Positions 2,313 to 41,348 of a stretch of 64,000 nucleotides of DNA are shown piece by piece. The notes under the pieces were generated by a model that worked only from the letters and a program-made list of their open reading frames with translations, had not been told where the DNA came from and searched no databases. The translations under genes were made by a program, and so were the position numbers. The DNA comes from Arenicellales bacterium (lineage in GTDB: Bacteria; Pseudomonadota; Gammaproteobacteria; Arenicellales; JAJDZL01), in NCBI GenBank assembly GCA_965220725.1, contig OZ244840.1:2560552-2624551 (forward strand), in the 5' to 3' direction. How positions within the stretch are numbered: position 1 is the first letter of the stretch; the number at the start of each line of letters is the position of its first letter.

Positions 2313-5201
2313 ATGCAATTCAATTTGCTCACAGTACGACTGTCGTTGATCGTCGGGTGTCTTTTGGTTTTTGTATGGGGAGGGGCAAGCAGTAACGAGA
2401 GGGAGTTGTACTTTTATTTCCATGATGACGGTACCAACAGTACGATCACTCCTGTCGGGCAAGCATTGGATCTCGTTGGTTTGAGCCGATGTACAGACCA
2501 ATTTAAACAAGTCGGGAACGATGGTTACAAGTTTCAGGTGCAAGATACGGTTAATGAGGGAACTGGCACCAATCCAGATAATAAGGTAATTTACGCAATT
2601 CATATACAAAATCCTCTTCACCCCAACACTACACCAGGAACTTGCTATGCACCCACTTCGGGTGAAGTCAAGGTTATAAAGAGTTTCGATGGTGCTTCAA
2701 GGTACACACCCGCAAGTGGTGCAAATTGGCGAAATGATCCGGATAGTGGTTTTGCACTCGTTCCAGATTATGCGCACTGGGAATACAACCACACCGATAC
2801 AACTCTGCACTTGAATCGGGTGACTTGGCAAGATACTTGGTGGAAGTGGAATGGAACCCTAGCCAATACGATTGGTGATGCTGATTTCCACATTGACTTC
2901 TATTTTGAATGGAACAACAAGCCTTATGTGGTGATTTTCTCGACGGATGATCCGGCAGAAAGGATTCCGGTTAAACCCATCGAGCTGACTGCAACCCCGG
3001 GCGACGGGCAGGCAACCCTGAACTGGAAACCACAGATCTACAATATAGCCATCACCAAATTTCAGTTTCAGCAGAAGCAGGACAACGGCCAGTATAGCGC
3101 CTGGGAGGACATGACCGGTAGCGATGGTTCAACCGTCAGTTACTCGGTGGATGAACTGGCCAACGGCCATACGTACAGTTTCAAGATCCGGGCAGTGAAT
3201 GACAAAGGCGACGGTGCCGAGTCCAACGAAGCATCGGCAGAGTTGGACGGAGTGCCGAGTTTCAGCGGTGCGATTGCCAATCAGAATTATGTGATAGGCC
3301 AAGCGATCACAACACTGCAGTTACCAACAGCAACCGGCGGCAACGGTAGACTGACGCACACGCTTACACCCACAACGATGCCGGCAGGGCTAAGATTTGA
3401 TCCAACAACTCAGCAGATCAGCGGTAATCCGACGACAGAGACTGTGAATCCGATGTCCTACACTTGGAAAGCGGTGGACTCAGATACCAATACAGCCGAT
3501 ACGGATGCGGCCATATTGACGTTCACGATTGCTGTGGCACAAGACATGCCGCCCACATTTGGCACTCAGACGATTGAGGACAAGACGTACTGGCACGGCC
3601 TGGATGTTCGCACGCAATTACCGGCGGCGACTGGAGGTAATGGTACACCGCTGGAATACACACTCACACCACAACTGCCGGATGGCCTGAGGTTTGATGC
3701 TTCGACGCGTCGGATTCTCGGTGAGACGAAGGAATCGGCGATGCAGAATGCCGTAGAGTACACCTACAAAGTCCACGATACGGACAGCAACCGGGCGGAT
3801 AGCGATGCGGCCACATTGACATTCAATATCTCGGTGACTGAACCGCCAGCGGAGGTGACGGCCTTGATAGACCAGAGCATGGAGCTGATTCTTTCGGAGA
3901 AAGCCCGGATCATTGGGGGTGAGACCATGACCGGCATCCGCTCCAGGGTAGAGAACTTCATGGGACCGCAGGCTGGTGGCAACACCGGCATGAGCGTGAA
4001 TTCAAACGCAGTGATGTCATCGGGTTCATGGCGGGAGCCGGTGCGTATAGATGCTCCGAATTTTGTGTACAGTGACCGCTTTCCTGCCCTGGTGAACGCG
4101 TTCACCGAGGGTGGTTTGGGGCGAAACTCATTCTCCGTATGGAGCAACGCTTCACACAATCGGTTTGAGAATGACAATTCCGCGCTGAGTTACGATGGCA
4201 AGGTGTCGGGGTTCAGTTTCGGAGTGGATACTCCGCTCGGCGATGGCATGGTGGGTGGTGTCACGCTTTCGCGTTTTTCCGGTGAGGCTGATTTCCGTGA
4301 CGGTGACGACAGAACGGGCTGGCAGGAGATTGAGGCAACCAGCGTGACTCCATACTTCGGGATACGGACATCGGATTATATGATGTGGTCGTTTATCGGG
4401 ATAGGTTCGGGTGATTTCGACATCAAGGTTGACGATTACAGCGAGTCCAGTGATCTGTCACTGAATTCCGTGGGAGTCGGTGCCAGCGGAGAGGTGTGGC
4501 GCGATGACAAGACCGAACTGCACCTGATCGGTGATTTCGCACTGACCGAGTTGAGTGTGGATGCGTCGGAACTGATTCCTAAAAAGGATGTCAGCGTGCA
4601 GCGTACCCGTCTGGTTGTCGAGGCGAGTCAGCGCCATCAATCATCCGATGGCGGTGTATTGAAGCCATCGGCTGAGATCGGAGTCGTGGTCGACAGCGGT
4701 GATGGTGTCACCGGTACCCGGTTGGAGGTCGGAGCAGGGGTGAATTACCTGACACCTTCGCAACGCATGACTTTGTCGCTGTCATCCTACGGGCTGGTCA
4801 AGCGCAACAGCTCCGGTGAGTGGGGTGTTCGGGGCAGTATCCGCATGCAGCCGAAAGCAGGCGAGCAGGGACTGTCATTCAGCGTTCGGCCGTCGTATGG
4901 TGCGTCGGTGCGCAGTGTTGACCGTATCTGGGATAACGGACGTACCGATGATGTTGCCGGCCAACGTCGTTATCGGCCTCGGTTGGAAGCGGGTCTGAGT
5001 TACGGCTTCCGAATAGCAGGTGATCGGACGTCGCTGACACCGTACAGCGAGATTTCGATGTCGGGTAACAATCGCACTGTTCGAGTCGGTGCACGACTTG
5101 GATATGACTCCAAACTTGAGATGAAACTGCTCGGAGAAAGAGAGAAGTCTGCAGATGATGTCGAGAACTCGATTCATCTGCAAGGCGGGATTCGATTCTG
5201 A
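2313..5201 (+). CDS. autotransporter outer-membrane protein, paralog 1 (unrecognised N-terminal module, FN3, 2x Ig-like/He_PIG-type, beta-barrel)
   Basis: GGAGG lies 8 nt upstream of the ATG at 2313; the track ORF starts at 2286, but the internal ATG aligns with the paralog starts. Signal peptide is MQFNLLTVRLSLIVGCLLVFVWGGA. The FN3-like segment runs PIELTATPGDGQATLNW...YSFKIRAVNDKGDG. There are two LPxATGGNG...LPxGLRFD Ig-like repeats. The C-terminal ~300 aa have the alternating beta-strand pattern of an autotransporter barrel and end LQGGIRF. Confidence 0.85.
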   Translation: MQFNLLTVRLSLIVGCLLVFVWGGASSNERELYFYFHDDGTNSTITPVGQALDLVGLSRCTDQFKQVGNDGYKFQVQDTVNEGTGTNPDNKVIYAIHIQNPLHPNTTPGTCYAPTSGEVKVIKSFDGASRYTPASGANWRNDPDSGFALVPDYAHWEYNHTDTTLHLNRVTWQDTWWKWNGTLANTIGDADFHIDFYFEWNNKPYVVIFSTDDPAERIPVKPIELTATPGDGQATLNWKPQIYNIAITKFQFQQKQDNGQYSAWEDMTGSDGSTVSYSVDELANGHTYSFKIRAVNDKGDGAESNEASAELDGVPSFSGAIANQNYVIGQAITTLQLPTATGGNGRLTHTLTPTTMPAGLRFDPTTQQISGNPTTETVNPMSYTWKAVDSDTNTADTDAAILTFTIAVAQDMPPTFGTQTIEDKTYWHGLDVRTQLPAATGGNGTPLEYTLTPQLPDGLRFDASTRRILGETKESAMQNAVEYTYKVHDTDSNRADSDAATLTFNISVTEPPAEVTALIDQSMELILSEKARIIGGETMTGIRSRVENFMGPQAGGNTGMSVNSNAVMSSGSWREPVRIDAPNFVYSDRFPALVNAFTEGGLGRNSFSVWSNASHNRFENDNSALSYDGKVSGFSFGVDTPLGDGMVGGVTLSRFSGEADFRDGDDRTGWQEIEATSVTPYFGIRTSDYMMWSFIGIGSGDFDIKVDDYSESSDLSLNSVGVGASGEVWRDDKTELHLIGDFALTELSVDASELIPKKDVSVQRTRLVVEASQRHQSSDGGVLKPSAEIGVVVDSGDGVTGTRLEVGAGVNYLTPSQRMTLSLSSYGLVKRNSSGEWGVRGSIRMQPKAGEQGLSFSVRPSYGASVRSVDRIWDNGRTDDVAGQRRYRPRLEAGLSYGFRIAGDRTSLTPYSEISMSGNNRTVRVGARLGYDSKLEMKLLGEREKSADDVENSIHLQGGIRF

Positions 5202-5264: not shown

Positions 5265-5839
5265 CCATTTCAGGTATCTAGACAGTCTGTGATCGCAAGA
5301 GAGCATCAGCTGCAACCTGCTGGTGTAGGGAACTGAATAGATGAGGTTATTGCATTAAGAAGAGATTTTTAGGAATTTCTTCCGTAGAAATCTATTAGCC
5401 AGCGCGTATTTGTCTTGTGCCGCCATCAAGATTCATTGGACTTCCGAGTTCGAAGCAGATTCGCCTTGCACAAAGCAGGTACGACGCAGTGGGAAGGTTG
5501 AACTTGTATTTGCGTTTCAATTGAGGGCGGTGCAAAAGTTTCAAAAATTTCTTTCTCAAGCGAGCATTCATTTCTTGTAAAATTACTTACTTATCAGAAA
5601 ATAAAAAGGTTGCATTCTCGGAATCGCCGAATTGACAGACGTCCGGCTTTGATATTTAGTCAGGCGTGGCAATCGGATCAATTCTTTCCGGGTATTTGGC
5701 AACAAAATTAACGTGAAGTACGGAAATGATCTGTGTGCTTGGTACAGTGTGCTGGCAATAACAGGCTGTGCCGTATGTTCAGATTTGAATTCAATTTTTC
5801 CGGCACAGGGACGCGCTCATTTTTTTTGAGGTTAAAGTT

Positions 5840-8686
5840 ATGACATTAAATTTGCTCACAATACGACTGTCGTTGGTCGTCGTGTGTCTAATGGTATGGG
5901 GGGAGGCAAGCAGTAACGAGAGGGAGTTGTACTTTTACTTCCATGATGATGGTACCAACAGCACGGTCACTCCTGTCGGGCAATCAGTATATCCCCCTAG
6001 CTCGATCCGATGCGGCGACAAGGATAAACAAGTCGGGAACGATGGTTACAAGTTCCAAGTGGCAGATACGGCTGACCAAATTTATGCGATTCATATACAA
6101 AATCCTCTTCACCCCAACACTACACCAGGAACTTGCTATGCACCCACTTCGAGTGAAGTCAAGGTAATCAAGAGTTTCGATGGTGCTTCAAGGCACACAC
6201 CGGCAAGCGGTGCAAATTGGCGTAATAAACCCGGTACCTTTGTTCCGTCATATGCACACTGGGAATACAATCATACCAACAAAACTCTGCACATCAATCG
6301 GTTTCACTGGGAAAACGGTACTTGGTGGAAATGGAACGGAACCCTGAAAGATACGCTGGGTGATGAGGAGTTCCACATTGACTTCTATTTCGAATGGAGC
6401 AACCAACCCTATGTCATGATTTTCTCGACGGATGACCCGGCAGAAAGGACTCCGGTTAAACCCATTGAGCTGACAGCGGCTCCAGGCGACGGGCAGGCAA
6501 CCCTGAATTGGAAACCGCAAATCTACAATATTGACATCACTAAATACCAGTACCAGAAAAAGCAGGACAGTGGCAATTTTGGTGCCTGGGAGGACATGGC
6601 AGGTTCTGGCAAGACGACCACTTCGTTCACCGTGACGGATTTGCCCAACGGCCATACGTACACATTCAAAATTCGGGCGGTTAATGGCAAGGGTGACGGC
6701 GTCGACTCCGACACAGCGTCGGCAGAGTTGGACGGAGTGCCGAGTTTCGGTACTGTGATTACCAACCAGAATTTCGTGATAGGCCAAGCGATCACAACGC
6801 TGCAGCTACCAACGGCAACCGGCGGCAACGGTAGACTGACGCACACGCTTACACCCACAACGATGCCGGCAGGGCTAAGATATGATCCAACAACCCAGCA
6901 GATCAGCGGTAATCCGACGACAGAGACTGTGAATCCGATGTCCTATACCTGGAAGGCAGTGGACTCAGACACCAACACAGCAGATACCGATGCGGCCATA
7001 ATGACGTTCACGATTGCTGTGGCACAAGACATGCCGCCCACATTCGGCACACAGACGATTGAGGACAAGACGTACTGGCATGGCCAAGATGTCCGCACGC
7101 AATTGCCGGCGGCGACCGGAGGCAATGGTACACCGCTGGAATACACACTCACGCCGCAACTGCCGGACGGTCTGAGGTTTGATGCTTCGACGCGTCGGAT
7201 TCTCGGTGACCCGAAGGAATCGGCGATGCAGAGTGCGGTGGAGTACACCTACAAGGTTCACGATCCGGACAACAACCGGGCGGATAGTGATGCGGCCACA
7301 CTGACATTCAATATCTCGGTGACCGAACCGCCGACGGAGGTGACGGCTCTGATCGACCAGAGCATGGATCTGATTCTGTCGGAGAAAGCCCGGATCATCG
7401 GAGGTGAGATCATGAGCGGTGTCCGCTCCAGGGTACAGAACTTCACGGGACCACAGGCTGGCGGTAACACCGGTATGAATGTGAATTCAAACGCAGGGAT
7501 GTCAGCGGGTTTATCGCGGCAGCCGGTGCGTATGGATTTACAGCAGTTTGTGTACAGTGATCACTTCCCAGCGCTCGTGAATGCGTTTTCCGAAGGAGGT
7601 CCGGCTCTAAATTCGTTCTCAGTTTGGAGCGATGCCACGCACAGTCGGTTTGAGAATGACAGTTCGGCGCTGAGTTACGATGGCAAGGTATCAGGTTTCA
7701 GTTTTGGACTGGACACCCCGCTGGGTGAGGACGTTGTTGGCGGTGTTACCCTTTCGCAATATTCCGGTGAGGTTGATTACCAAAGCAGTGATGGTCGAAG
7801 CGGCACGCAGCAGATCAAGGCGACGAGTGTGAGTCCTTATTTAGGATTGAGGACCTCCGACTATGTGATGTGGTCGTTCGTTGGAATCGGCTCGGGTGAT
7901 TTCGAGGTTGATCAGGGTGACTACAGCGAGTCCAGTGATCTGTCACTGAATACCGTGGGAATCGGCGCCAGCGGAGAGGTGTGGCGCGATGACAAGACCG
8001 AGTTGCACCTGATCGGTGATTTCGCGCTGACTGAGTTGAGTGTGGATGCTGCGGGTCTGATCCCCGACAAGTATGTGAGCGTGCATCGTACCCGTGTGGT
8101 GGTCGAGGCGAGTCAGCGCTATCAATCGTCTGATGGCGGTGTATTCAAGCCGTCGGCCGAGGTCGGAGTCGTGATCGACAGCGGTGATGGTGTCACCGGT
8201 ACCCGGTTGGAGGTCGGAGCAGGCGTGAATTACCTGACACCTTCGCAACGCCTGACGTTGTCGCTGTCGTCTTACGGATTGGTCAAGCGCAACAGCGCTA
8301 GTGAATGGGGTGTTCGGGGCAGTATCCGCATGCAGCCGGAAGCCGGCGAACAGGGACTGTCATTCAGCGTGCGACCGTCTTATGGTGCGTCGGTGCGCGG
8401 TGTTGACCGCATCTGGGATAACGGCCGTTCCGATGATGTTGCCGGAGAACGTCGTTATCGGCCTCGGTTGGAAGCGGGTCTGAGTTACGGTTTCCGAGTT
8501 GCAGGTGACCGGGTGTTGCTGGCACCGTTCAGCGAGATTTCGATGTCGGGTAACAATCGCACTGTTCGAGTCGGTACCCGACTTGGATATGACTCCAAAC
8601 TTGAGATGAGCCTGCTCGGAGCAAGGGAGGAGTCTGCGGATGATGTTGAAAATTCGCTCCACCTGCAAGGTGGGATTCGATTCTGA
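5840..8686 (+). CDS. autotransporter outer-membrane protein, paralog 2
   Basis: GAGG RBS then ATG at 5840. Same architecture as paralog 1, with a type-B FN3 (TKYQYQKKQDSGNFGAWEDM). Ends LQGGIRF. Confidence 0.85.
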   Translation: MTLNLLTIRLSLVVVCLMVWGEASSNERELYFYFHDDGTNSTVTPVGQSVYPPSSIRCGDKDKQVGNDGYKFQVADTADQIYAIHIQNPLHPNTTPGTCYAPTSSEVKVIKSFDGASRHTPASGANWRNKPGTFVPSYAHWEYNHTNKTLHINRFHWENGTWWKWNGTLKDTLGDEEFHIDFYFEWSNQPYVMIFSTDDPAERTPVKPIELTAAPGDGQATLNWKPQIYNIDITKYQYQKKQDSGNFGAWEDMAGSGKTTTSFTVTDLPNGHTYTFKIRAVNGKGDGVDSDTASAELDGVPSFGTVITNQNFVIGQAITTLQLPTATGGNGRLTHTLTPTTMPAGLRYDPTTQQISGNPTTETVNPMSYTWKAVDSDTNTADTDAAIMTFTIAVAQDMPPTFGTQTIEDKTYWHGQDVRTQLPAATGGNGTPLEYTLTPQLPDGLRFDASTRRILGDPKESAMQSAVEYTYKVHDPDNNRADSDAATLTFNISVTEPPTEVTALIDQSMDLILSEKARIIGGEIMSGVRSRVQNFTGPQAGGNTGMNVNSNAGMSAGLSRQPVRMDLQQFVYSDHFPALVNAFSEGGPALNSFSVWSDATHSRFENDSSALSYDGKVSGFSFGLDTPLGEDVVGGVTLSQYSGEVDYQSSDGRSGTQQIKATSVSPYLGLRTSDYVMWSFVGIGSGDFEVDQGDYSESSDLSLNTVGIGASGEVWRDDKTELHLIGDFALTELSVDAAGLIPDKYVSVHRTRVVVEASQRYQSSDGGVFKPSAEVGVVIDSGDGVTGTRLEVGAGVNYLTPSQRLTLSLSSYGLVKRNSASEWGVRGSIRMQPEAGEQGLSFSVRPSYGASVRGVDRIWDNGRSDDVAGERRYRPRLEAGLSYGFRVAGDRVLLAPFSEISMSGNNRTVRVGTRLGYDSKLEMSLLGAREESADDVENSLHLQGGIRF

Positions 8687-8715
8687 CCTTGTTTTGAATT
8701 CTTGATTCCTTGATG

Positions 8716-8749
8716 ATGCCGGTACGGATTCCGTACCGGCATTCTTTTT
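8716..8749 (+). terminator. rho-independent terminator of paralog 2
   Basis: Near-perfect palindrome ATGCCGGTACGG-ATT-CCGTACCGGCAT followed by TCTTTTT. Confidence 0.8.
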
Positions 8750-9326
8750 CCATTTCAGGAATGTAGACGATCTGCAATCACAAGTGAGCATCACCTGCAA
8801 ACTGCTGGTGTAATTAACTGAACCTATGAGGTTATTGCTTTAAGAAAAACACCATACAGATGTCTTTTGTTGAAATTTAGTAGCCAGCGCGTATTACTTT
8901 TGTGTCGCCATCGCAATTCATTGGACCTCTGAGTTCAAAACAGATTCACCTTGCACAAAGCAGGTGCGACGCAGTGGGAAGGTTGACCTTGTATTTGCGT
9001 TTCAATTGAGGGCGGTGCAGAAGTTACAAGATTTTTCTATCAAGCGAACATTCAAGTTTTTGTACAATTTTTGATTAATCAGAAAATCATGAAGTTGTAT
9101 TCTCGGAATCGCTGAATTGACTGACGTTCCGCTTTGAAAATTGGCAGGCGTGGTTAGTGGATCAATTCATTCCCCGGGTATTCGACATCAAAATAATCGT
9201 GAAGTACGGAAATGGCCTGTGTGTTTGGCGCAATGTGCTGAAAAATAAGAGGCAATGACGTATGCTCTGATTTGGATTCGATTTTTTCCGGCACAGGGAT
9301 GCGCCTTATTTTTGGAGGTTAAAGTT

Positions 9327-12210
9327 ATGAAATTAGGTTCGCTCGCAATGCGGCTGTCGTTGATCGTTGGGTGTCTGTTAGTTTTTGTCTGGGGGGGGGG
9401 CAAGCAGTAACGAGAGGGAATTGTACTTTTACTTTCATGATGATGGTACCAACAGCACGATCACTCCTGTCGGACAAAGATTAGACCACGAAGGTTTGAA
9501 CAGGTGCCCGAACAAAAATAAAAATGTCGGGTACGGTTATGCTTACAAGTTCCAGGTGCAAGATACGGTCAATGAGGGAACTGTATCCAATCCAGATAAC
9601 AAAGTAGTTTATGCAATTCATATACAAACTCCTAGTCAAAACAATGTCACACCCGGAACTTGCCATGCACCCACTTCGAGTGAAGTCAAAGTCATAAAGA
9701 GTTTTGATGGTGCTTCAAGGCACACACCGGCAAGCGGTGCAAATTGGCGTAATAAACCCGGTACCTTTGTTCCGACGTATGGACACTGGGAATACAACCA
9801 CACCGATGGAACCTTGATCATCAATCGATATTCTTGGGACCGAACTTGGTGGAAATGGAACGGAACCTTGAAAGATACACTGGGTGACGATGATTTCCAC
9901 ATAGATTTCTATCACGAATGGAACGACAAACCTTATGTGGTGATTTTCTCGACGGATGATCCGGCAGAAAGGATTCCGGTTAAACCCATTGAGCTGACTG
10001 CAACCCCGGGCGACGGGCAGGCAACCCTGAACTGGAAACCACAAATCTACAATATAGCCATCACCAAATTTCAGTATCAGCAGAAGCAGGATAACGGCCA
10101 GTATAGCGCCTGGGAGGACATGACCGGTAGCGATGGTTCAACCGTCAGCTACTCGGTGGATGAACTGGCCAATGGCCATACGTACAGTTTCAAGATCCGG
10201 GCGGTGAATGACAAAGGCGACGGTGCCGAGTCCAACGAAGCATCGGCAGAGTTGGACGGAGTGCCGAGTTTCGGTACTGTGATTACCAACCAGAATTTCG
10301 TGATAGGCCGAGCGATCACAACGCTGCAGCTACCAACGGCAACCGGCGGCAACGGTAGACTGACGCACACGCTTACACCCACAATGATGCCGGCAGGGCT
10401 AAGATTTGATCCAACAACTCAGCAGATCAGCGGTAATCCGACGACAGAGACTGTGAATCCGATGTCCTATACCTGGAAGGCAGTGGACTCAGACACCAAC
10501 ACAGCAGATACCGATGCGGCCATAATGACGTTCACGATTGCTGTGGCACAAGACATGCCGCCCACATTCGGCACACAGACGATTGAGGACAAGACGTACT
10601 GGCACGGCCAAGATGTCCGCACGCAATTGCCGGCGGCGACCGGAGGTAATGGTACACCGCTGGAATACACACTCACGCCGCAACTGCCGGATGGTCTGAG
10701 GTTTGATGCTTCAACGCGTCGGATTCTCGGTGACCCGAAGGAATCGGCGATGCAAAGTGCGGTGGAGTACACCTACAAGGTTCACGATCCGGACAACAAC
10801 CGGGCGGATAGCGATGCGGATATATTGACATTCAATATCTCGGTGACCGAACCGCCGACGGAGGTGACGGCTCTGATCGACCAGAGCATGGATCTGATTC
10901 TTTCGGAGAAAGCCCGGATCATCGGAGGTGAGATCATGACCGGTGTCCGCTCCAGGGTACAGAACTTCATGGGACCGCAGGTTGGTGGCAACACCGGTAT
11001 GGGCGTCAGTTCAGGCGCAGTGATGTCATCGGGTTCATCGCGTCAGCCGGTGCGTATGGATGCACAGCAGTTTGTGTATAGTGATCATTTCCCAGCGCTC
11101 GTGAATGCGTTTTCCGAAGGAGGTCCGGCTCGAAATACGTTCTCGGTGTGGAGCGATGCCACGCACAACCGGTTTGAGAACGACGATTCGGCGCTGAGTT
11201 ACGATGGCGAGGTGTCAGGCTTCAGTTTTGGACTGGACACCCCGCTGGGTGAGGACGTTGTTGGCGGTGTTACCCTTTCGCAGTATTCCGGTGAGGTAGA
11301 TTACCAAAACAGTGATGGACGAAAAGGCACGCAGCAGATCAAGGCGACGAGTGTGAGTCCTTATTTAGGATTGAGGACCTCCGACTATGTGATGTGGTCG
11401 TTCGTTGGAATCGGCTCGGGTGATTTCGAGGTGGATCAGGGTGACTACAGCGAGTCCAGTGATCTGTCACTGAACACTGTAGGCATCGGCGCCAGCGGAG
11501 AGGTGTGGCGCGATGACAAGACCGAGTTGCACCTGATCGGTGATTTCGCGCTGACTGAGTTGAGTGTGGATGCTGCGGGTCTGATCCCCGACAAGTATGT
11601 GAGCGTGCATCGCACCCGACTGGTGGTCGAGGCGAGTCAGCGCTATCAATCGTCTGATGGCGGTGTATTCAAGCCGTCGGCCGAGGTCGGAGTCGTGATC
11701 GACAGCGGTGATGGTGTCACCGGTACCCGGTTGGAGGTCGGAGCAGGCGTGAATTACCTGACACCTTCGCAACGCCTGACGTTGTCGCTGTCGTCTTACG
11801 GATTGGTCAAGCGCAACAGCGCTAGTGAATGGGGTGTTCGGGGCAGTATCCGCATGCAGCCGGAAGCCGGCGAACAGGGACTGTCATTCAGCGTGCGACC
11901 GTCTTATGGTGCGTCGGTGCGCGGTGTTGACCGCATCTGGGATAACGGCCGTTCCGATGATGTTGCCGGAGAACGGCGTTATCGGCCTCGGTTGGAAGCA
12001 GGTCTGAGTTACGGTTTCCGAGTTGCAGGTGACCGGGTGTTGCTGGCACCGTTCAGCGAGATTTCGATGTCGGGTAACAATCGCACTGTTCGAGTCGGTA
12101 CCCGACTTGGATATGACTCCAAACTTGAGATGAGCCTGCTCGGAGCAAGGGAGGAGTCTGCGGATGATGTTGAAAATTCGCTCCACCTGCAAGGTGGGAT
12201 TCGATTCTGA
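9327..12210 (+). CDS. autotransporter paralog 3, interrupted by a +1 frameshift at a G10 tract (phase-OFF as sequenced)
   Basis: An intact GGAGG RBS and ATG at 9327 encode the signal peptide MKLGSLAMRLSLIVGCLLVFVW. This frame hits TAA at 9408-9410. The long ORF (track 9385..12210) is in the +1 frame, and a G9 tract would fuse the two frames as W-G-G-A-S-S-N-E, as in paralog 1. Confidence 0.8.
9391..9400 (+). repeat. homopolymeric G10 tract (candidate slipped-strand phase-variation switch)
   Basis: Ten consecutive G read directly from the sequence. The other paralogs have interrupted versions at this position: GGGGAGGGG, GGGGGGAGG and GGGAGGGGG. Confidence 0.9.
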
Positions 12211-12239
12211 CCTTGTTTTGAATTCTTGATTCCTTGATG

Positions 12240-12273
12240 ATGCCGGTACGGATTCCGTACCGGCATTCTTTTT
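12240..12273 (+). terminator. rho-independent terminator of paralog 3
   Basis: Identical to the terminator at 8716-8749. Confidence 0.8.
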
Positions 12274-12847: not shown

Positions 12848-15718
12848 ATGAGATTAAATTTACTCACATTACGGCAGTCGTTGATCGTCGGGTGTCTGTT
12901 GTTTTTTGTATGGGAGGGGGCAAGCAGTAACGAGAGAGAGTTGTATTTTTATTTCCATAATATTGAGGAGAACGGCGTTCAAAAAAGCAGAATCACTCCC
13001 CACACTCCCGGTGGTGGAGTATTTGACCTTACTAACATAAAACGTTGCAGCTTTCCTCCTGGTGATGATGGAGGACGAGGAACCGATCCAGAAAAAATTC
13101 AGATAGGGGATGGAAGCAATAATGATATTTTTATCATTCATGCCGCGGACGATGTACCAGGGACTTGCACTAAACCGGACTCAATGAGTCATTCCGTAGT
13201 AGAAGCCTTCACGGGGACTACTAAGTTCGTACCGGGAGCCAGTGGCGGATACGAAAATCCAAATTATTCTTTCAATCAAGGGCGTGCACATTGGGCATAC
13301 GACGCTACCGATGGAACTTTGATCACCAACCAGATTTGGTATGACGGCAGACTCTGGTGGAAATGGAACGGGACCCTGAAAGATACGCTGGGTGATGATA
13401 AGTTCCATATTGATCTAATTATGGAATGGAACAGCAAGCCTTATGTGGTGATTTTCTCGACAAATGATCCGGCAGAAAGGGTTCCCGTGAAGCCTATCGA
13501 TTTGGAAGCGACTCCCGGCGATGGGCAGGCGACTTTGGACTGGAAGCCGCAAATCTACGGTATAGACATCAAAAAATACCAATACCAGAAAAAGCAGGAC
13601 AGTGGCAATTTCGGTGCCTGGGAAGACATGAAGGGTAGTGATGATTCGACCACTTCGTACATAGTAGATAATTTGACCAACGGTCATATGTACACATTCA
13701 AAATCCGGGCGGTTAATGACAAGGGTGACGGCGTCGAGTCCGATACCGCGTCGGCAGAGTTGGACTCAGTGCCGAGTTTCGGTACTGCGATTGCCGACCA
13801 GAATTTTGTGGTAGGCCAAGTGATCACAACGCTGCAGTTACCAACGGCAACGGGCGGTAACGGTGCTCTGACTCACACGCTTACACCTACAACGGTGCCT
13901 GCAGGGCTCAGATTCGATCCAGCAACGCGGCAGATCAGCGGTACTCCGACGACAATGACCCAGAATCCGATACCCTTTACTTGGAAGGCAGTGGACTCGG
14001 ACGCCATTACAGCCGATACGGATGCGGCCATAATTACGTTCACAATTGCGGTGGCACAAGACACGCCACCCTCATTCGGGACACAGACGATTGAGGACAA
14101 GTCGTACTGGCCTGGCCTGGATGTCCACACGCAGTTGCCGGCGGCGACCGGAGGTAATGGAACTCCGCTGGAATACACGCTCACACCACAACTGCCGGAT
14201 GGTTTGAGTTTTAATGCTTCGACGCGACGGATTCTCGGTGACCCGAAGGAATCGGCGATGCAGAGTGCGGTGCAGTACACCTACAAGGTTCACGATGCGG
14301 ACAGCAACCGGGCGGATAGTGATGCGGCCACACTGACATTCAATATCTCGGTGACCGAACCGCCGGCGGAGGTAGCAGCCTTGATAGACCAGAGCATGGA
14401 TCTGATACTTTCGGAGAAGGCCCGAATAATCGGAGGTGAGATCATGACCGGTGTCCGCTCCAGGGTGCAGAACTTCATGGGACCGCAGGTTGGCGGCAAC
14501 ACCGGTATGGGTGTGAATTCAAGTGCAGTGATGTCAGCGGGTTCATCGCGGGAGCCGGTGCGGATGGATGCACAGCAGTTTGTGTACAGTGATCACTTCC
14601 CAGCGCTCGTGAATGCGTTTTCCGAAGGAGGTTCGGCTCGAAATACGTTCTCGGTGTGGAGCGATGCTACACACAATCAATTTGAGAACGACGATTCGGC
14701 GCTGAGTTACGATGGCGAGGTGTCAGGTTTCAGTTTCGGACTGGACACCCCGTTGGATGAGGACGTCATTGGCGGTGTGGCCCTTTCGCAATATTCCGGC
14801 GAGGTTGATTACCAAAGCAGTGATGGTCGAAAAGGCACGCAGCAGATCAAGGCGACGAGTGTGAGTCCTTATTTCGGCTTGCGGACATCCGACTATGTGA
14901 TGTGGTCGTTCGTCGGAATCGGCTCGGGTGATTTCGAGGTGGATCAAGGTGACTACAGCGAGTCCAGTGATCTGTCACTGAATACCGTGGGAATCGGCGC
15001 CAGCGGAGAGGTGTGGCGCGACGACAAGACTGAACTGCACCTGATCGGTGATTTCGCGCTGACTGAGTTGAGTGTGGATGCTGCGGGTCTGATCCCCGAC
15101 AAGTATGTGAGCGTGCATCGTACCCGACTGGTGGTGGAGGCGAGTCAGCGCCATCAATCGTCTGATGGCGGTGTATTCAAGCCGTCGGCCGAGGTCGGAG
15201 TCGTGATCGACAGCGGCGATGGTGTCACCGGTACCCGGTTGGAGATCGGAGCAGGTGTGAATTACCTGACACCTTCGCAACGCCTGACGCTGTCACTGTC
15301 ATCGTACGGGCTGGTCAAGCGCAACAGTTCCAGTGAGTGGGGTGTTCGGGGCAGTATCCACATGCAGCCGGAAGCCGGCGAACAGGGACTGTCATTCAGC
15401 GTACGACCGTCGTATGGTGCGTCGGTGCGCAGTGTTGACCGCATCTGGGATAACGGCCGTTCCGATGATGTTGCCGGCCAACGGCGTTACCGACCTAGGT
15501 TGGAAGCGGGTCTGAGTTACGGCTTCCGAATCGCAGGTGATCGGATAACGCTGAAACCGTACAGTGAGATTTCGATGTCGGGTAACAATCGCACTGTTCG
15601 AGTCGGTACCCGACTTGGATATGACTCCAAACTTGAGATGAGCCTGCTCGGAGAACGGGAGGAGTCTGCGAGTGATGTCGAAAGTTCGCTCCACTTGCAA
15701 GGTGGGATTCGATTCTGA
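12848..15718 (+). CDS. autotransporter outer-membrane protein, paralog 4 (most divergent N-terminal module)
   Basis: The ATG at 12848 aligns with the other paralog starts (MRLNLLTLRQSLIVGCLLFFVWEGA); the track ORF starts at 12785. Same FN3, Ig-like and barrel architecture. Ends LQGGIRF. Confidence 0.85.
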   Translation: MRLNLLTLRQSLIVGCLLFFVWEGASSNERELYFYFHNIEENGVQKSRITPHTPGGGVFDLTNIKRCSFPPGDDGGRGTDPEKIQIGDGSNNDIFIIHAADDVPGTCTKPDSMSHSVVEAFTGTTKFVPGASGGYENPNYSFNQGRAHWAYDATDGTLITNQIWYDGRLWWKWNGTLKDTLGDDKFHIDLIMEWNSKPYVVIFSTNDPAERVPVKPIDLEATPGDGQATLDWKPQIYGIDIKKYQYQKKQDSGNFGAWEDMKGSDDSTTSYIVDNLTNGHMYTFKIRAVNDKGDGVESDTASAELDSVPSFGTAIADQNFVVGQVITTLQLPTATGGNGALTHTLTPTTVPAGLRFDPATRQISGTPTTMTQNPIPFTWKAVDSDAITADTDAAIITFTIAVAQDTPPSFGTQTIEDKSYWPGLDVHTQLPAATGGNGTPLEYTLTPQLPDGLSFNASTRRILGDPKESAMQSAVQYTYKVHDADSNRADSDAATLTFNISVTEPPAEVAALIDQSMDLILSEKARIIGGEIMTGVRSRVQNFMGPQVGGNTGMGVNSSAVMSAGSSREPVRMDAQQFVYSDHFPALVNAFSEGGSARNTFSVWSDATHNQFENDDSALSYDGEVSGFSFGLDTPLDEDVIGGVALSQYSGEVDYQSSDGRKGTQQIKATSVSPYFGLRTSDYVMWSFVGIGSGDFEVDQGDYSESSDLSLNTVGIGASGEVWRDDKTELHLIGDFALTELSVDAAGLIPDKYVSVHRTRLVVEASQRHQSSDGGVFKPSAEVGVVIDSGDGVTGTRLEIGAGVNYLTPSQRLTLSLSSYGLVKRNSSSEWGVRGSIHMQPEAGEQGLSFSVRPSYGASVRSVDRIWDNGRSDDVAGQRRYRPRLEAGLSYGFRIAGDRITLKPYSEISMSGNNRTVRVGTRLGYDSKLEMSLLGEREESASDVESSLHLQGGIRF

Positions 15719-39410: not shown

Positions 39411-39762
39411 ATTTTTCCAAGTTTTCTCGTTTTCATTGCTGTCGGCTATTTTACTGCGGATTGGATTGGTTTGAAATTATGCGGCGATTGCACGTTTACA
39501 CGGACCAAACACTTGTGAATCTATTTTGCTGATGTACAGATGACAGCGAATTGATGGGGCAGGTATTTGCATTGAATTCGCAGTGATGTTCGATGGCTAT
39601 TGATATTTCTAACTTTCGATTCTGGGCTGGATAACATGCTGTCAATGTGCATCTTGTCAATTTTGAACATGAGCCGACTGAATGCGAATTTGGGCCATAA
39701 TTCACAACCTGAAAAACGACAGAATTATTGCAATATCGTGTCAATTCGAGTAACATAAAGAG

Positions 39763-39815
39763 CAATAGAGCCGTCACGCCTCTTAACAATGCGCAACCTT
39801 GGCGGCTATTTTTTT
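39763..39815 (+). ncRNA. candidate ~50-nt structured RNA, module 1 (promoter-hairpin-U tract)
   Basis: TTGCAA (39728-39733), a 17-nt spacer, then TAACAT (39751-39756). The hairpin AGCCGTCA...TGGCGGCT spans 39769-39807 with an inner CGC/GCG helix, followed by A+T7 at 39808-39815. The predicted TSS is inferred, not observed. Confidence 0.35.
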
Positions 39816-39817
39816 GA

Positions 39818-39958
39818 ATGCCAGTGGCTGAAACTTTCAATGGAGTGGAGTTTGTCTGTGAACGGCAAATGCAAGATCTCGCGGACAGAGGGAAAATTGT
39901 TGATGACCCTGAAAAAAAGCGACACGAAATTATTGCAATATCGTGTCAATTCGAGTAA
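39818..39958 (+). CDS. 46-codon mini-ORF paralogous to the Abi N-terminus (copy 1); translation doubtful
   Basis: My translation is MPVAETFNGVEFVCERQMQDLADRGKIVDDPEKKRHEIIAISCQFE. About half of its first 33 residues are identical to the start of the Abi protein, MAETFNEIALSYEQQLQHLKNRGIIVDDDD. No Shine-Dalgarno sequence. Confidence 0.3.
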   Translation: MPVAETFNGVEFVCERQMQDLADRGKIVDDPEKKRHEIIAISCQFE

Positions 39959-39967
39959 CATAGAGAG

Positions 39968-40020
39968 TAATAGAGCCGTCACGCCTCTTAACAATGCGCA
40001 ACCTTGGCGGCTATTTTTTT
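39968..40020 (+). ncRNA. candidate structured RNA, module 2
   Basis: Same elements as module 1 shifted by +205 bp. The hairpin plus T tract at 39974-40020 is identical to module 1. Confidence 0.35.
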
Positions 40021-40022
40021 GA

Positions 40023-40163
40023 ATGCCAGTGGTTGAAACTTTCAATGGAATGGAGTTTGCTTGTGAACGGCAAATGCAAGATCTCAAGGACAGAGGGATA
40101 ATTGTTGATGACCCTGAAAAAAAGCGATACGAAATTATTGCAATCGCGTATCAATTCGAGTAA
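40023..40163 (+). CDS. 46-codon mini-ORF (copy 2); translation doubtful
   Basis: Translates to MPVVETFNGMEFACERQMQDLKDRGIIVDDPEKKRYEIIAIAYQFE, with the same frame and stop position as copy 1. No Shine-Dalgarno sequence. Confidence 0.3.
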   Translation: MPVVETFNGMEFACERQMQDLKDRGIIVDDPEKKRYEIIAIAYQFE

Positions 40164-40172
40164 CATAAAGAG

Positions 40173-40225
40173 CAATAGAGCCGTCACGCCTCTTAACAAT
40201 GCGCAACCTTGGCGGCTATTTTTTT
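40173..40225 (+). ncRNA. candidate structured RNA, module 3
   Basis: Same elements as module 1 shifted by +410 bp. The hairpin plus T tract at 40179-40225 is identical. Confidence 0.35.
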
Positions 40226-40227
40226 GA

Positions 40228-40368
40228 ATGCCAGTGGTTGAAACTTTCAATGGAATGGAGTTTGCCTGTGAACGGCAAATGCAAGATCTCAAGGACAGAG
40301 GGATAATTGTTGATGACCCTGAAAAAAAGCGATACGAAATTATTGCAATCGCGTATCAATTCGAGTAA
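40228..40368 (+). CDS. 46-codon mini-ORF (copy 3); translation doubtful
   Basis: Same peptide as copy 2, with one synonymous difference (GCT to GCC). Confidence 0.3.
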   Translation: MPVVETFNGMEFACERQMQDLKDRGIIVDDPEKKRYEIIAIAYQFE

Positions 40369-40377
40369 CATAAGAAG

Positions 40378-40430
40378 CAATAGAGCCGTCACGCCTCTTA
40401 ACAATGCGCAACCTTGGCGGCTATTTTTTT
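40378..40430 (+). ncRNA. candidate structured RNA / leader-attenuator, module 4 (immediately 5' of abi)
   Basis: TTGCAA at 40343-40348 and TAACAT at 40366-40371. The hairpin plus T7 at 40384-40430 is identical to the other modules and is followed by a GGAG RBS and the ATG at 40440. Confidence 0.35.
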
Positions 40431-40439
40431 GGAGTATCA

Positions 40440-41348
40440 ATGGCTGAAACCTTCAATGAAATAGCGCTTTCCTACGAACAGCAATTGCAGCATCTCAAGA
40501 ACAGAGGAATAATTGTTGATGATGATGATTCTGCATTGTGTAGTCTGAGAACTATCAGTTATTTCCGTATAAACGCCTATTTGTATCCCTTCCGCCACAA
40601 AGTGCAAAAGGATGCGCACTCCGAGCAGTTTATCCCAGGAACTAGACTTAGCGACGCGATTAATCTTCACGAGTTCGATCGTCTTTTGCGGTTAGCGGTT
40701 ATGGATGCTATAGAGCGTTTTGAAGTATGTGTACGAGCACTATTGGCATATAGAATCGCACATTCGTATGGAGTTTTCGGATACACGAATGCAGCGAATT
40801 TTTACCCGGACTTTGATCATTCGACTTGGCAAAGTAAACTGGAAAAAGAGATACATCGTCGGTCCAAAGAAGGCTTCATCGGCCGATTCAAGAATAAATA
40901 TACCGACTATCCCAAATTGCCAATTTGGATGGCGACGGAAGTAATGTCATTCGGTAGTTTATCCATCTGCTTCAATGGACTCAAAATCGACGATAAGCGA
41001 TCAATAGCTTCCAATTTTTCTCTCCCTTACAAGAGACTCCAAAGTTGGTTGCATTTGCTTGTATATATCCGCAATATCTGTTCACATCACGACCGGCTAT
41101 GGAACCGAAGTCTCTCAATTCGATCAATTGTGCCAAGAGATACAAATTGGAACCCACCAATTACACCTCGGAATGACAGGGTATTCTTCGTGCTTCTGGT
41201 TTTAAGGCATTTGCTTCAGTTTGTGCGCGGTGTCGATGACTGGAAGAACTGGTGTGATGAACTAATTTACTCTATATCCGAAGATAGCAAACTACTCAAA
41301 GCAATGGCGGTTCCAGAAAACTGGATTGAGCATCCCTTGTGGAAGTAA
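40440..41348 (+). CDS. Abi_2 family (AbiD/AbiF-like) abortive-infection protein, HEPN-type
   Basis: 302 aa. GGAG RBS 5 nt upstream of the ATG at 40440. The N-terminal ...QQLQHLKNRGIIVDD...ISYFRINAY and the motif YIRNICSHHDRLWNR (R-x4-H) are characteristic of Abi_2/HEPN. The track ORF start 40404 lies inside the hairpin module. Confidence 0.75.
   Translation: MAETFNEIALSYEQQLQHLKNRGIIVDDDDSALCSLRTISYFRINAYLYPFRHKVQKDAHSEQFIPGTRLSDAINLHEFDRLLRLAVMDAIERFEVCVRALLAYRIAHSYGVFGYTNAANFYPDFDHSTWQSKLEKEIHRRSKEGFIGRFKNKYTDYPKLPIWMATEVMSFGSLSICFNGLKIDDKRSIASNFSLPYKRLQSWLHLLVYIRNICSHHDRLWNRSLSIRSIVPRDTNWNPPITPRNDRVFFVLLVLRHLLQFVRGVDDWKNWCDELIYSISEDSKLLKAMAVPENWIEHPLWK

What the first reader, a model, noticed from the sequence alone, without database searches (positions are those of the whole stretch)
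9327..9410. Uninterrupted G10 tract in the signal-peptide codons puts autotransporter paralog 3 out of frame: candidate phase-variation switch
The start of paralog 3 is intact, with GGAGG, the ATG at 9327 and the signal peptide MKLGSLAMRLSLIVGCLLVFVW. After the G10 run (9391-9400) this frame reads GGC AAG CAG TAA and stops at 9408-9410. The remaining 2.8 kb stays open in the +1 frame. Removing one G (G9) gives W-G-G-A-S-S-N-E, the same junction as paralog 1. The other three paralogs have the equivalent position interrupted by an A (GGGGAGGGG, GGGGGGAGG, GGGAGGGGG), so only this copy has a slippage-prone homopolymer. Established knowledge: poly-G/C tracts of about 8 or more inside the 5' ends of surface-protein genes are the classic contingency-locus mechanism in Neisseria, Haemophilus, Campylobacter and Bordetella. 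A homopolymer sequencing error is the main alternative.
Basis: partly seen in the sequence, partly recalled or inferred. Interest (0 to 1): 0.7.

Follow-up and report, generated by a model that had tools for sequence, protein, structure and literature searches.

The report
Poly-G on/off switch in autotransporter gene
A run of ten G's in the signal-peptide codons of one of four tandem surface-protein (autotransporter) genes puts that copy out of frame, as in classic bacterial on/off phase-variation switches; related genes carry similar runs, so it is a credible, textbook-type switch that still needs read-level proof.

Summary
G10 lies at 9391-9400. The ATG 9327 frame stops at 9408-9410. The remaining 936 codons are open in the +1 frame. 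G9 or G12 would give a 960/961-aa autotransporter with a signal peptide.

The paralog has no other lesion, and its unique N-terminal domain evolved under purifying selection (dN/dS 0.26-0.31, as for the intact copies). GGG is the rarest Gly codon here.

The same junction carries an in-frame, uninterrupted G9 in the par4 ortholog of a second strain. It carries a frame-breaking G10 in a fifth family member of the same population. In par1, par2 and par4 the 9-nt tract is interrupted by an A at three different positions.

Distant homologs in other sponge-symbiont MAGs carry C14-C33 tracts at their 5' ends, some in frame and some out.

Best reading: a slipped-strand contingency locus caught in its OFF phase (confidence about 0.6). 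No tract-length heterogeneity at this locus could be observed: no reads are available, and the second strain lacks par3. A young pseudogene and a homopolymer consensus error therefore remain open.

Known kind, new member, in an uncultivated gammaproteobacterium that is probably sponge-associated.

The parts
8715..8743 (+). Terminator-like hairpin after par2. It sets the upstream boundary of the par3 transcription unit.
   Evidence: 13-bp stem followed by a T run. An identical hairpin follows par3.
9290..9305 (+). Conserved imperfect palindrome GGCACAGGGATGCGCC followed by a T-rich stretch, just upstream of the ribosome-binding site. Role unknown.
   Evidence: Present upstream of every family member. 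The par4 copy is scored terminator-like. There is no compensatory covariation (my inspection of alignment A2).
9314..9318 (+). Ribosome-binding site GGAGG, 8 nt before the ATG.
   Evidence: The context GAGGTTAAAGTTATG is conserved in all paralogs.
9327..9410 (+). Signal-peptide reading frame, truncated after 27 codons: MKLGSLAMRLSLIVGCLLVFVWGGGKQ*.
   Evidence: n-region with K2/R9, h-region LSLIVGCLLVFVW, c-region GG(A) (inspection).
9391..9400 (+). Uninterrupted G10 tract, the candidate slipped-strand switch. It encodes the Gly-Gly c-region of the signal peptide.
9400..12210 (+). Body of paralog 3 in the +1 frame: orphan N-terminal domain, fn3, He_PIG repeats and autotransporter beta-barrel, ending ...GGIRF. 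936 codons with no lesion.
   Evidence: Gene callers start it at TTG 9385 (941 aa, P0121, no signal peptide).
12239..12267 (+). Terminator-like hairpin after par3.
2313..5201 (+). Paralog 1, in frame. Tract locked by an A: GGGGAGGGG at 2377-2385.
5840..8686 (+). Paralog 2, in frame. Tract GGGGGGAGG at 5898-5906. Its 3' 1.4 kb and the next 400 nt are about 98-100% identical to par3.
12848..15718 (+). Paralog 4, in frame. Tract GGGAGGGGG at 12912-12920. Its ortholog in strain 2 has an uninterrupted G9.

Best explanation
Paralog 3 is a functional type Va autotransporter gene with an Ig-like/fn3 passenger. Its expression is gated by a hypermutable poly-G tract in the codons for the c-region of its signal peptide. 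Slipped-strand mispairing during replication changes the tract by +/-1 G. With G9 (or G12), ATG 9327, the signal peptide and the 936-codon body form one ORF, and the protein is exported and displayed. With G10, as in this consensus, translation ends after 27 codons. The body has no signal peptide and is probably not made, so the gene is OFF in most cells of the sampled population. The array is a small contingency-gene family. Some copies are locked ON by a G-to-A interruption (par1, par2, par4), and some are free to switch (par3, the P0126 locus, par4 in strain 2). What is shown: the tract, the frames, the intactness of the gene, the family-wide pattern. What is inferred: slippage, reversibility, heterogeneity among cells, any benefit.
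For: 1. Anatomy: intact RBS, ATG and signal peptide, then G10, a stop 8 nt later, and a body open in +1. G6/9/12 restore 959-961 aa.
2. Not decayed: no other stop or frameshift. dN/dS for par3 against par1 and par2 in the divergent N-terminal domain is 0.26 and 0.31 at dS 0.47-0.59, the same as par1-par2 at 0.26.
3. Same site, different states in relatives. Strain 2 (ERZ25072236, about 98% identical flanks) has an uninterrupted in-frame G9 in the par4 ortholog, where the window has GGGAGGGGG. A fifth family member has G10 at the same junction, splitting a 29-aa signal-peptide ORF from an 1119-aa body, and G9 would fuse them (L002). The window genome's own copy, P0126, starts MGVCSSLWGGGS, which is the same shifted frame.
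4. The interruptions sit at three different positions, as expected if an ancestral G9 was locked independently.
5. Codon usage does not explain the run. GGG is 10-11% of Gly codons and 0 of 99 other Gly-Gly pairs are GGG-GGG.
6. All four G>=9 runs found in about 115 kb of this species' DNA lie in or next to family genes.
7. General assembly accuracy is good. 18.4 kb of orthologous sequence from the two assemblies shows no 1-nt homopolymer discrepancy, and housekeeping genes in the window are full length.
8. Distant homologs in Nitrospirales and Poriferihabitaceae MAGs carry C14-C33 tracts at their 5' ends, in both in-frame and out-of-frame states.
9. Precedent: G9-G11 tracts inside the Bordetella pertussis autotransporter genes tcfA and bapC change length within 23-30 generations, and bapC is annotated frameshifted at G11 (PMC1891110).
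Against: No tract-length polymorphism was seen at an orthologous locus. par3 has no ortholog in the only other strain found. The P0126-type tract is G10 in the one assembly with DNA (L002), and in the window genome it is inferred only from the protein's shifted frame; the two proteins are 100% identical, so this is probably one population. A G10 arises by composition alone in about 9% of shuffled windows. The sequence is probably a long-read MAG consensus, and long homopolymers are the weakest point of such data (my knowledge). Absence of par3 from strain 2 shows the gene is dispensable, which also fits incipient loss. No expression data, mismatch-repair status or reads are available.
Confidence: 0.6

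Rival explanations
1. Young pseudogene. A one-off +1 G insertion inactivated a dispensable paralog that is on its way to being lost. There is no adaptive or frequent reversible switching.
For: Strain 2 lacks par3 altogether. Its array looks like the window's minus one unit, with the junction inside the 100%-identical 3'/downstream segment. Campylobacter autotransporter genes with poly-G tracts were judged to undergo lineage-specific decay rather than phase variation (PMC7168839). No length variation was observed here.
Against: There is no second lesion in 936 codons and no relaxed dN/dS. The mutation lies exactly in a run that is mutable by nature, so reversion is expected at the same high rate as the forward change (tcfA/bapC). 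The same kind of break occurs in a second family member, and an uninterrupted in-frame G9 exists in another strain.
Confidence: 0.2
2. Homopolymer consensus error. The true tract is G9, the gene is intact, and the frameshift exists only in the assembly.
For: G10 is the longest homopolymer in the window, and long homopolymers are the main residual error class of long-read data (my knowledge). L002, which also shows G10, is a contig labelled '2x'. The same ambiguity was reported for poly-G tracts in Chlamydia psittaci pmp genes (PMC3323650).
Against: Two G9 runs in strain-2 contigs (ERZ25072236) are called as G9, one of them in frame (L001 13556-13564, L091 9686-9694). This argues against systematic over-calling, if that assembly used the same sequencing technology, which I could not check. 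There is no 1-nt homopolymer discrepancy in 18.4 kb compared between the two assemblies, including a T8. No other broken gene was found in the window. Two separate family genes of this genome would both need the same +1 error.
Confidence: 0.12
3. G10 is the working state. A fraction of transcripts or ribosomes corrects the frame, by transcriptional slippage to G9/G12 or by a +1 ribosomal slip of tRNA-Gly on GGG-G. This gives constitutive low-level expression rather than a DNA-level switch.
For: A +1 slip within the run would yield exactly W-G-G-A-S-S-N-E. Two family genes of this population share the 10-nt state: a G10 run in L002, and the same shifted frame inferred from the protein in the window genome.
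Against: The shift is not conserved. Four paralogs or orthologs are in frame with 9 nt. No stimulatory element was found, and Rfam has no hit in the array. Efficient transcriptional slippage is established mainly for A/T runs (my knowledge).
Confidence: 0.05

Closest known systems
Bordetella pertussis autotransporter genes bapC and tcfA (intragenic poly-G tracts)
   Same: Classical autotransporters with a G9-G11 run inside the ORF. bapC is frameshifted at G11 in the reference genome and restored by a one-base contraction. Tract length varies within 23-30 generations (PMC1891110).
   Different: There the tracts lie further into the gene (tcfA codon 130) rather than in the signal-peptide c-region. 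The passenger domains are unrelated. Those genes are single copies, not a tandem array with locked and unlocked members. Switching was measured there and has not been measured here.
Neisseria meningitidis AutB/AutA
   Same: [quoted passage not shown]
   Different: The repeat is a tetranucleotide (AAGC), not a homopolymer. The passenger is unrelated. The host is a human mucosal commensal/pathogen.
Campylobacter CapC/CapD autotransporter families
   Same: Poly-G tracts are associated with autotransporter genes, upstream in capC and in the coding sequence in capD (PMC7168839). This mirrors the coding versus leader positions seen here among the symbiont homologs.
   Different: That study attributed most inactivation to lineage-specific decay with additional lesions. 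No additional lesion is present in par3.
Chlamydia polymorphic membrane protein (Pmp) families
   Same: A multi-copy paralogous autotransporter family in a host-associated bacterium. Some members carry long poly-G tracts that are in frame in one sequencing effort and frameshifted in another, with the same ambiguity between artefact and slippage (PMC3323650).
   Different: Different passenger architecture (Pmp repeats) and different phylum. An obligate intracellular pathogen.
Helicobacter pylori outer-membrane protein genes with CT repeats in the signal-peptide region (recalled from memory, not checked here)
   Same: The repeat sits in the signal-peptide codons of paralogous surface-protein genes and sets ON/OFF by frame.
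   Different: Dinucleotide repeats, and the proteins are not autotransporters.

Membership tests
Type Va (classical) autotransporter | C-terminal autotransporter beta-barrel domain | tested here: met
   PF03797: 33.6 bits for par3 and 35.5 for par1, against a cut-off of 26. C-terminal ...GGIRF ends in an aromatic residue.
Type Va (classical) autotransporter | N-terminal Sec signal peptide joined to a passenger domain | tested here: inconclusive
   A signal peptide is visible by inspection: n-region K2/R9, 13-residue hydrophobic core, small residues G-G-A before the junction. In par3 it is joined to the passenger only at G9/G12. No signal-peptide predictor was available. A lipobox reading (IVGC) was rejected because par2 has VVVC.
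Type Va (classical) autotransporter | Passenger displayed at or released from the cell surface | not testable with these tools
   Needs protein work. Passenger domains are fn3 and He_PIG plus an N-terminal ~185-aa domain with no homolog outside this species.
Simple-sequence-repeat contingency (phase-variable) locus | A repeat long enough to be hypermutable, within the ORF or promoter of the gene | tested here: met
   Uninterrupted G10 in codons 22-25. G9-G11 tracts are experimentally unstable in B. pertussis autotransporter genes.
Simple-sequence-repeat contingency (phase-variable) locus | A change of repeat number alone toggles between a complete and a truncated product, and the gene is otherwise intact | tested here: met
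   960 aa at G9, 27 aa at G10, 52 aa at G11. No other lesion, and purifying selection.
Simple-sequence-repeat contingency (phase-variable) locus | Repeat-length polymorphism at the same locus among cells or strains | tested here: inconclusive
   par3 has no ortholog in strain 2. The metagenome pattern scan gave only chance hits. The evidence is indirect: G9, G10 and interrupted 9-mers at the same site in paralogs and in one ortholog pair.
Simple-sequence-repeat contingency (phase-variable) locus | High-frequency, reversible switching of expression | not testable with these tools
   Needs reads, amplicons or a reporter assay.
Decaying pseudogene | Several independent lesions and/or relaxed selection | tested here: not met
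   A single frameshift. dN/dS 0.26-0.31, the same as between intact paralogs.
Programmed frameshift / transcriptional-slippage gene | The out-of-frame arrangement is conserved among orthologs and paralogs and accompanied by stimulatory elements | tested here: not met
   par1, par2, par4 and the three strain-2 genes are in frame with 9 nt. No known RNA element in the array. Only the P0126-type gene shares the 10-nt state.

The most novel reading that the evidence does not exclude
The G10 is one instance of a wider, undescribed habit. Phylogenetically distant sponge-associated bacteria put homopolymeric G/C tracts at the 5' ends of autotransporters with Ig-like, cadherin-like or Calx-beta passengers, so that each cell displays a random subset of its host-interaction proteins. 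The lineages are this gammaproteobacterium, an Arenicellales 'Ca. Poriferihabitaceae' MAG and a Nitrospirales MAG. In the Poriferihabitaceae MAG the tracts are exceptionally long (C19-C33). They lie 20-35 nt before the main ATG, inside or after a short upstream MNxxRQ... reading frame in which they would read as polyproline. Some copies are fused in frame with the main ORF and some are not, which may be a different, leader-based mode of control.
Probability: 0.4. Interest if true: 0.75.

Novelty: new member of a known kind. Interest (0 to 1): 0.5.

Why it matters
Contingency loci are known mainly from pathogens and commensals of vertebrates. If real, this one shows the same bet-hedging logic in an uncultivated marine gammaproteobacterium, probably a sponge symbiont. 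It is applied to the adhesin-like 'eukaryotic-like' surface proteins thought to mediate host contact (fn3 and cadherin domains are enriched in sponge microbiomes, PMC10947273). That would point to fluctuating selection on these proteins, for example from host phagocytes, phages or neighbours.

It is directly measurable. Long-read metagenomes already contain the ON/OFF ratio in situ.

There is also a practical point. Gene callers turned both frameshifted genes into N-terminally truncated 'proteins' without signal peptides (P0121, P0126). MAG-based inventories of secreted and surface proteins will therefore misclassify such genes.

Tried and rejected
1. Exact-protein look-ups of window genes to find other assemblies (par2, the 941-aa ORF, P0126, the ABC ATPase, the AstE-like gene): not on record. 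Only strain-2 and L002 contigs were retrievable.
2. Scan of metagenome contigs with the conserved post-tract 18-mer: 15 hits, all chance matches with no flanking similarity.
3. The genome-contig scan returned only distant relatives (<=48% identity). The source genome is not in that collection.
4. A protein search with the repaired N-terminal 228 aa gave no scored hit, not even the window's own paralogs. This is a limitation of the word index, not evidence.
5. The exhaustive representative search showed that the N-terminal ~185 aa has no homolog outside this species. All other hits cover only the last ~40 residues.
6. AlphaFold2 on the N-terminal domain with a 4-sequence alignment gave pLDDT 30, which is unusable. 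No fold search was run.
7. Cluster member P0125 (Logan SRR4292262) showed no similarity to the window or the strain loci, although that BLAST query file held several loci, so the check was not clean. I treated its cluster membership as spurious.
8. The sigma-70 consensus scan found no promoter between the par2 terminator and par3. The promoter remains unassigned.
9. A lipoprotein (lipobox IVGC) reading of the signal peptide was rejected, because par2 has V at -1.
10. The conserved palindrome before the RBS was considered as an RNA hairpin or attenuator. The variants break pairs without compensation, so nothing is claimed.
11. A simple recent duplication of par2 was rejected as the origin of par3. 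The first ~600 nt of the body are only 74-81% identical to any paralog.
Full report
**1. The observation.**
The sequence reads ...GTTTTTGTC-T-GGGGGGGGGG-CAAGCAGTAACGAG..., with the G run at 9391-9400. GGAGG lies at 9314-9318, 8 nt before ATG 9327. From that ATG the frame reads MKLGSLAMRLSLIVGCLLVFVWGGGKQ* and stops at 9408-9410. The +1 frame is open from 9385 to 12210. It is closed immediately upstream by TAG 9379-9381, so the body cannot acquire a signal peptide in its own frame.

Rebuilding the gene with other tract lengths gives these products:
- G6, G9, G12: 959, 960, 961 aa (...FVWGGASSNERELYF...).
- G7, G10, G13: 26-28 aa.
- G8, G11, G14: 51-53 aa.

The three neighbouring paralogs have 9-nt tracts, each interrupted by one A at a different position:
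- par1: 2377-2385, GGGGAGGGG.
- par2: 5898-5906, GGGGGGAGG.
- par4: 12912-12920, GGGAGGGGG.

All four genes have fn3, He_PIG and the autotransporter beta-domain above Pfam's cut-offs. Each of par2, par3 and par4 is followed by a terminator-like hairpin, so they are probably separate transcription units.

**2. Is it more than chance?**
By base composition alone, only mildly. Dinucleotide shuffles of the window contain a G10 in 9 of 100 cases. The real sequence, however, avoids G/C runs. There are 19 runs of five, 2 of six, none of seven to nine, and then this one.

The run also sits exactly at the site where every paralog has a G-rich 9-mer. It is built from GGG, the rarest glycine codon here (10-11%). 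None of 99 other Gly-Gly pairs in the window's genes is encoded GGG-GGG.

**3. What kind of gene is par3?**
It is not a fresh copy of par2.
- The first ~600 nt of the body are only 74-81% identical to any paralog.
- A 200-nt stretch matches par1 at 98%.
- The 3' 1.4 kb plus 400 nt downstream are about 98-100% identical to par2.

So it is an old paralog kept partly uniform by gene conversion. Its N-terminal ~185-aa domain has no homolog outside this species among 1.84 billion representative proteins. A structure prediction of that domain failed (pLDDT 30).

In that domain par3 differs from par1 and par2 at dS 0.47-0.59, with dN/dS 0.26-0.31. The value between the intact par1 and par2 is 0.26. 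There is no stop or second frameshift in 936 codons.

**4. Relatives.**
The window comes from a 2.94-Mb genome, whose proteins P0001, P0121 and P0128 match it exactly. Its gene content is gammaproteobacterial: gyrA, aroA, rpsA, lapB, mfd, pcnB. RpsA is 86% identical to that of an 'Acidiferrobacterales bacterium' MAG.

*Strain 2.* A second strain (ENA ERZ25072236) shares 97.6-98.7% identical flanks. It has only three genes in the array: orthologs of par1, par2 and par4. par3 is missing, and the junction lies in the segment where par2 and par3 are identical.

In that strain the par4 ortholog carries an uninterrupted, in-frame G9 (L001 13556-13564), where the window has GGGAGGGGG.

*A fifth family member.* This gene was recovered on a contig from a third assembly (L002). 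It has a G10 at the same signal-peptide junction. A 29-aa ORF (MKINLPAQKLSLVIGCLFFIVGGGQCDRY*) is separated from an 1119-aa body, and G9 would fuse them into 1138 aa.

The window genome's own copy, P0126, is 100% identical over 1118 aa. It starts MGVCSSLWGGGS, which is the translation of the signal-peptide region in the shifted frame. So at least two of six or more family genes of this population are out of frame at the same site. I infer that the tract in the window genome's copy is 10 nt long and most likely a G10 run, but the protein sequence alone cannot show that it is uninterrupted.

*A fourth run.* A G9 lies about 315 nt upstream of another family gene in strain 2 (L091 9686-9694).

All four G>=9 runs seen in about 115 kb of this species' DNA are therefore in or beside family genes.

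**5. Assembly quality.**
In 18.4 kb of orthologous sequence compared between the two assemblies there are only two indels. One is 6 nt in the par2 signal peptide and one is 20 nt in a permease gene. There is no single-base homopolymer discrepancy, and a T8 agrees in both. The window's housekeeping genes match their family models end to end. Two G9 runs in strain-2 contigs are called as G9. This argues against a general or systematic homopolymer problem, as far as different assemblies can be compared. It cannot exclude an error at the single longest run.

**6. Wider family.**
A scan of one genome per species returned only distant homologs (<=48% identity). Nearly all come from MAGs with sponge-symbiont taxon names. 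From this I infer, without proof, that the window's organism is sponge-associated.

These loci contain striking poly-C tracts on the coding strand at the 5' ends of the homologous autotransporter genes. Pfam confirms those genes as autotransporters with cadherin-like, Calx-beta, fn3 and He_PIG passengers.

*Nitrospirales MAG (OY843588.1).* C14-C16 tracts lie in the N-terminal coding region ahead of the hydrophobic core. They are in frame in L008 and L017 and out of frame in both L015 genes.

*'Ca. Poriferihabitaceae' MAG (Arenicellales).* Seven of ten matched genes whose 5' end is within the locus, plus two neighbours, carry C19-C33 tracts 20-35 nt before the main ATG. Each tract lies within or after a short upstream MNxxRQ... 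reading frame. That frame is fused in frame with the main ORF in four cases and out of frame in five.

I found no paper in the searchable library that links sponge symbionts with phase variation or contingency loci.

**7. Mechanism.**
The best-supported reading is a slipped-strand contingency switch caught in the OFF phase.

Shown:
- the tract and the frame arithmetic;
- the intact RBS, ATG and signal peptide;
- the intact and constrained body;
- the coexistence of locked (A-interrupted), open-ON (G9) and open-OFF (G10) versions of the same site across paralogs and strains.

Inferred:
- that the run changes length at high frequency;
- that it reverts;
- that cells differ in tract length;
- that this is useful.

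The inference rests on established behaviour of such runs. G9-G11 tracts inside the B. pertussis autotransporter genes tcfA and bapC vary within 23-30 generations, and bapC is frameshifted at G11 in the reference genome (PMC1891110). N. meningitidis autB has its repeat in the signal-sequence codons and is out of phase but intact in most isolates (PMC5118866).

The tract encodes the Gly-Gly c-region just before the likely cleavage site. An extra Gly (G12) should be tolerated there.

**8. Rivals.**
- *Young pseudogene of a dispensable paralog (0.2).* Supported by the absence of par3 from strain 2 and by the Campylobacter precedent of decay (PMC7168839). Weakened by the lack of further lesions and the intrinsic reversibility of a G10.
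- *Homopolymer consensus error (0.12).* Plausible for the longest run in a long-read consensus, and the same doubt is on record for Chlamydia pmp genes (PMC3323650). Weakened by the points in section 5 and by the need for the same +1 error in two genes.
- *Decoding of G10 by transcriptional or ribosomal slippage (0.05).* Not excluded, but the out-of-frame state is not conserved and no stimulatory element was found.

**9. Comparison, novelty and score.**
It works like the intragenic homopolymer switches of bapC/tcfA, capD and the pmp genes, and like autB in the placement of the repeat.

Membership in 'type Va autotransporter' is met for the beta-barrel domain and inconclusive for the signal peptide (seen by inspection only, and joined to the passenger only at G9/G12).

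Membership in 'phase-variable contingency locus' is met for the structural criteria. It is untested for the defining behavioural ones, namely length polymorphism at the locus and reversible switching.

It is a new member of a known kind. Interest is moderate (0.5). The mechanism itself is textbook. The setting is not: an uncultivated, probably sponge-associated bacterium, a tandem family with locked and unlocked members, and convergent tracts in distant symbionts. The question can also be answered directly from existing long reads.

Noticed in passing
L002 152-3569 (ENA ERZ25067264 ctg150535_2x_l); same gene as P0126 of the window genome: A fifth family member elsewhere in the genome has a G10 (214-223) at the same signal-peptide junction. 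It splits a 29-aa signal-peptide ORF from an 1119-aa body, and G9 would fuse them. Gene callers report it as an N-terminally truncated protein.
   Followed up: yes
L001 13429-16362 (ENA ERZ25072236 contig_8), tract 13556-13564: In a second strain the par4 ortholog has an uninterrupted, in-frame G9 where the window has GGGAGGGGG. That strain has only three genes in the array and par3 is absent. The 5'/signal-peptide segments of the orthologs are mosaic (88-91% identical) while the bodies are 99-100% identical.
   Followed up: yes
L091 9686-9694 and 4887-8936 (ERZ25072236 contig_3): A G9 run (ttctGGGGGGGGGcaaatgagg) lies about 315 nt upstream of the ATG of family member P0005. Directly upstream is a further, 1349-aa family member. 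Whether this intergenic run affects expression is unknown.
   Followed up: partly
L005 1994-2022, L006 654-684, L013 1548-1569 and 5767-5790, L014 1217-1235, L018 322-351, L020 2635-2657, L024 5700-5724, L057 2341-2373 ('Ca. Poriferihabitaceae' MAG CBDBBV010000002.1): Very long poly-C tracts (C19-C33) lie 20-35 nt before the ATG of autotransporter genes with cadherin-like, Calx-beta or fn3 passengers. A short upstream reading frame (MNxxRQ...NVNxT) runs into each tract, which would read as polyproline. It is fused in frame with the main ORF in 4 cases and out of frame in 5. This could be a leader-based or N-terminal-extension switch. It is unexplained.
   Followed up: partly
L004 6496-6511 and 6753-6767, L008 6119-6133, L015 1430-1443 and 7381-7395, L017 532-545 (Nitrospirales MAG OY843588.1): C14-C16 tracts lie in the N-terminal coding region, ahead of the signal-peptide core, of large autotransporter homologs. 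They are in frame in L008 and L017 and out of frame in both L015 genes, which is the pattern of a contingency-gene family.
   Followed up: partly
window 39712-40522 and 40404-41348: Four tandem 205-nt repeats each contain the Rfam abiF RNA motif (RF03085, 40.2 bits). They run into the start of a gene for an Abi_2 (AbiF-like) protein. The layout resembles a repeated-RNA plus abortive-infection/toxin pair. A Uma2-family nuclease gene lies nearby at 42536-43192.
   Followed up: partly
window 9290-9305 (also before par1, par2 and par4; L002 ~120-135; L091 ~9962-9977): A conserved imperfect palindrome GGCRCAGGGAYGCGCY followed by a T-rich stretch lies 8-10 nt before the ribosome-binding site of every family member. 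The par4 copy scores as terminator-like. The sequence variants break pairs without compensation, so it may be a protein-binding site rather than an RNA hairpin.
   Followed up: partly
window 5889 (par2 signal peptide) versus L001 10050: There is a 6-nt in-frame indel in the hydrophobic core of the par2 signal peptide between the two strains (LMVW versus LLVFVW). It is one of only two indels in 18.4 kb compared. The other is a 20-nt insertion that splits an ABC permease gene in strain 2 (window 19199).
   Followed up: no
window 9400-9960 (and the equivalent parts of par1, par2 and par4): The ~185-aa N-terminal passenger domain (ASSNERELYFYFHDDGTN...WWKWNGTL...VIFSTDDP) has no homolog outside this species in 1.84 billion representative proteins. 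AlphaFold2 with the four paralogs gave pLDDT 30.
   Followed up: partly
window 5820-5827: A T8 run lies between the conserved palindrome and the ribosome-binding site of par2. It has the same length in both strains.
   Followed up: no
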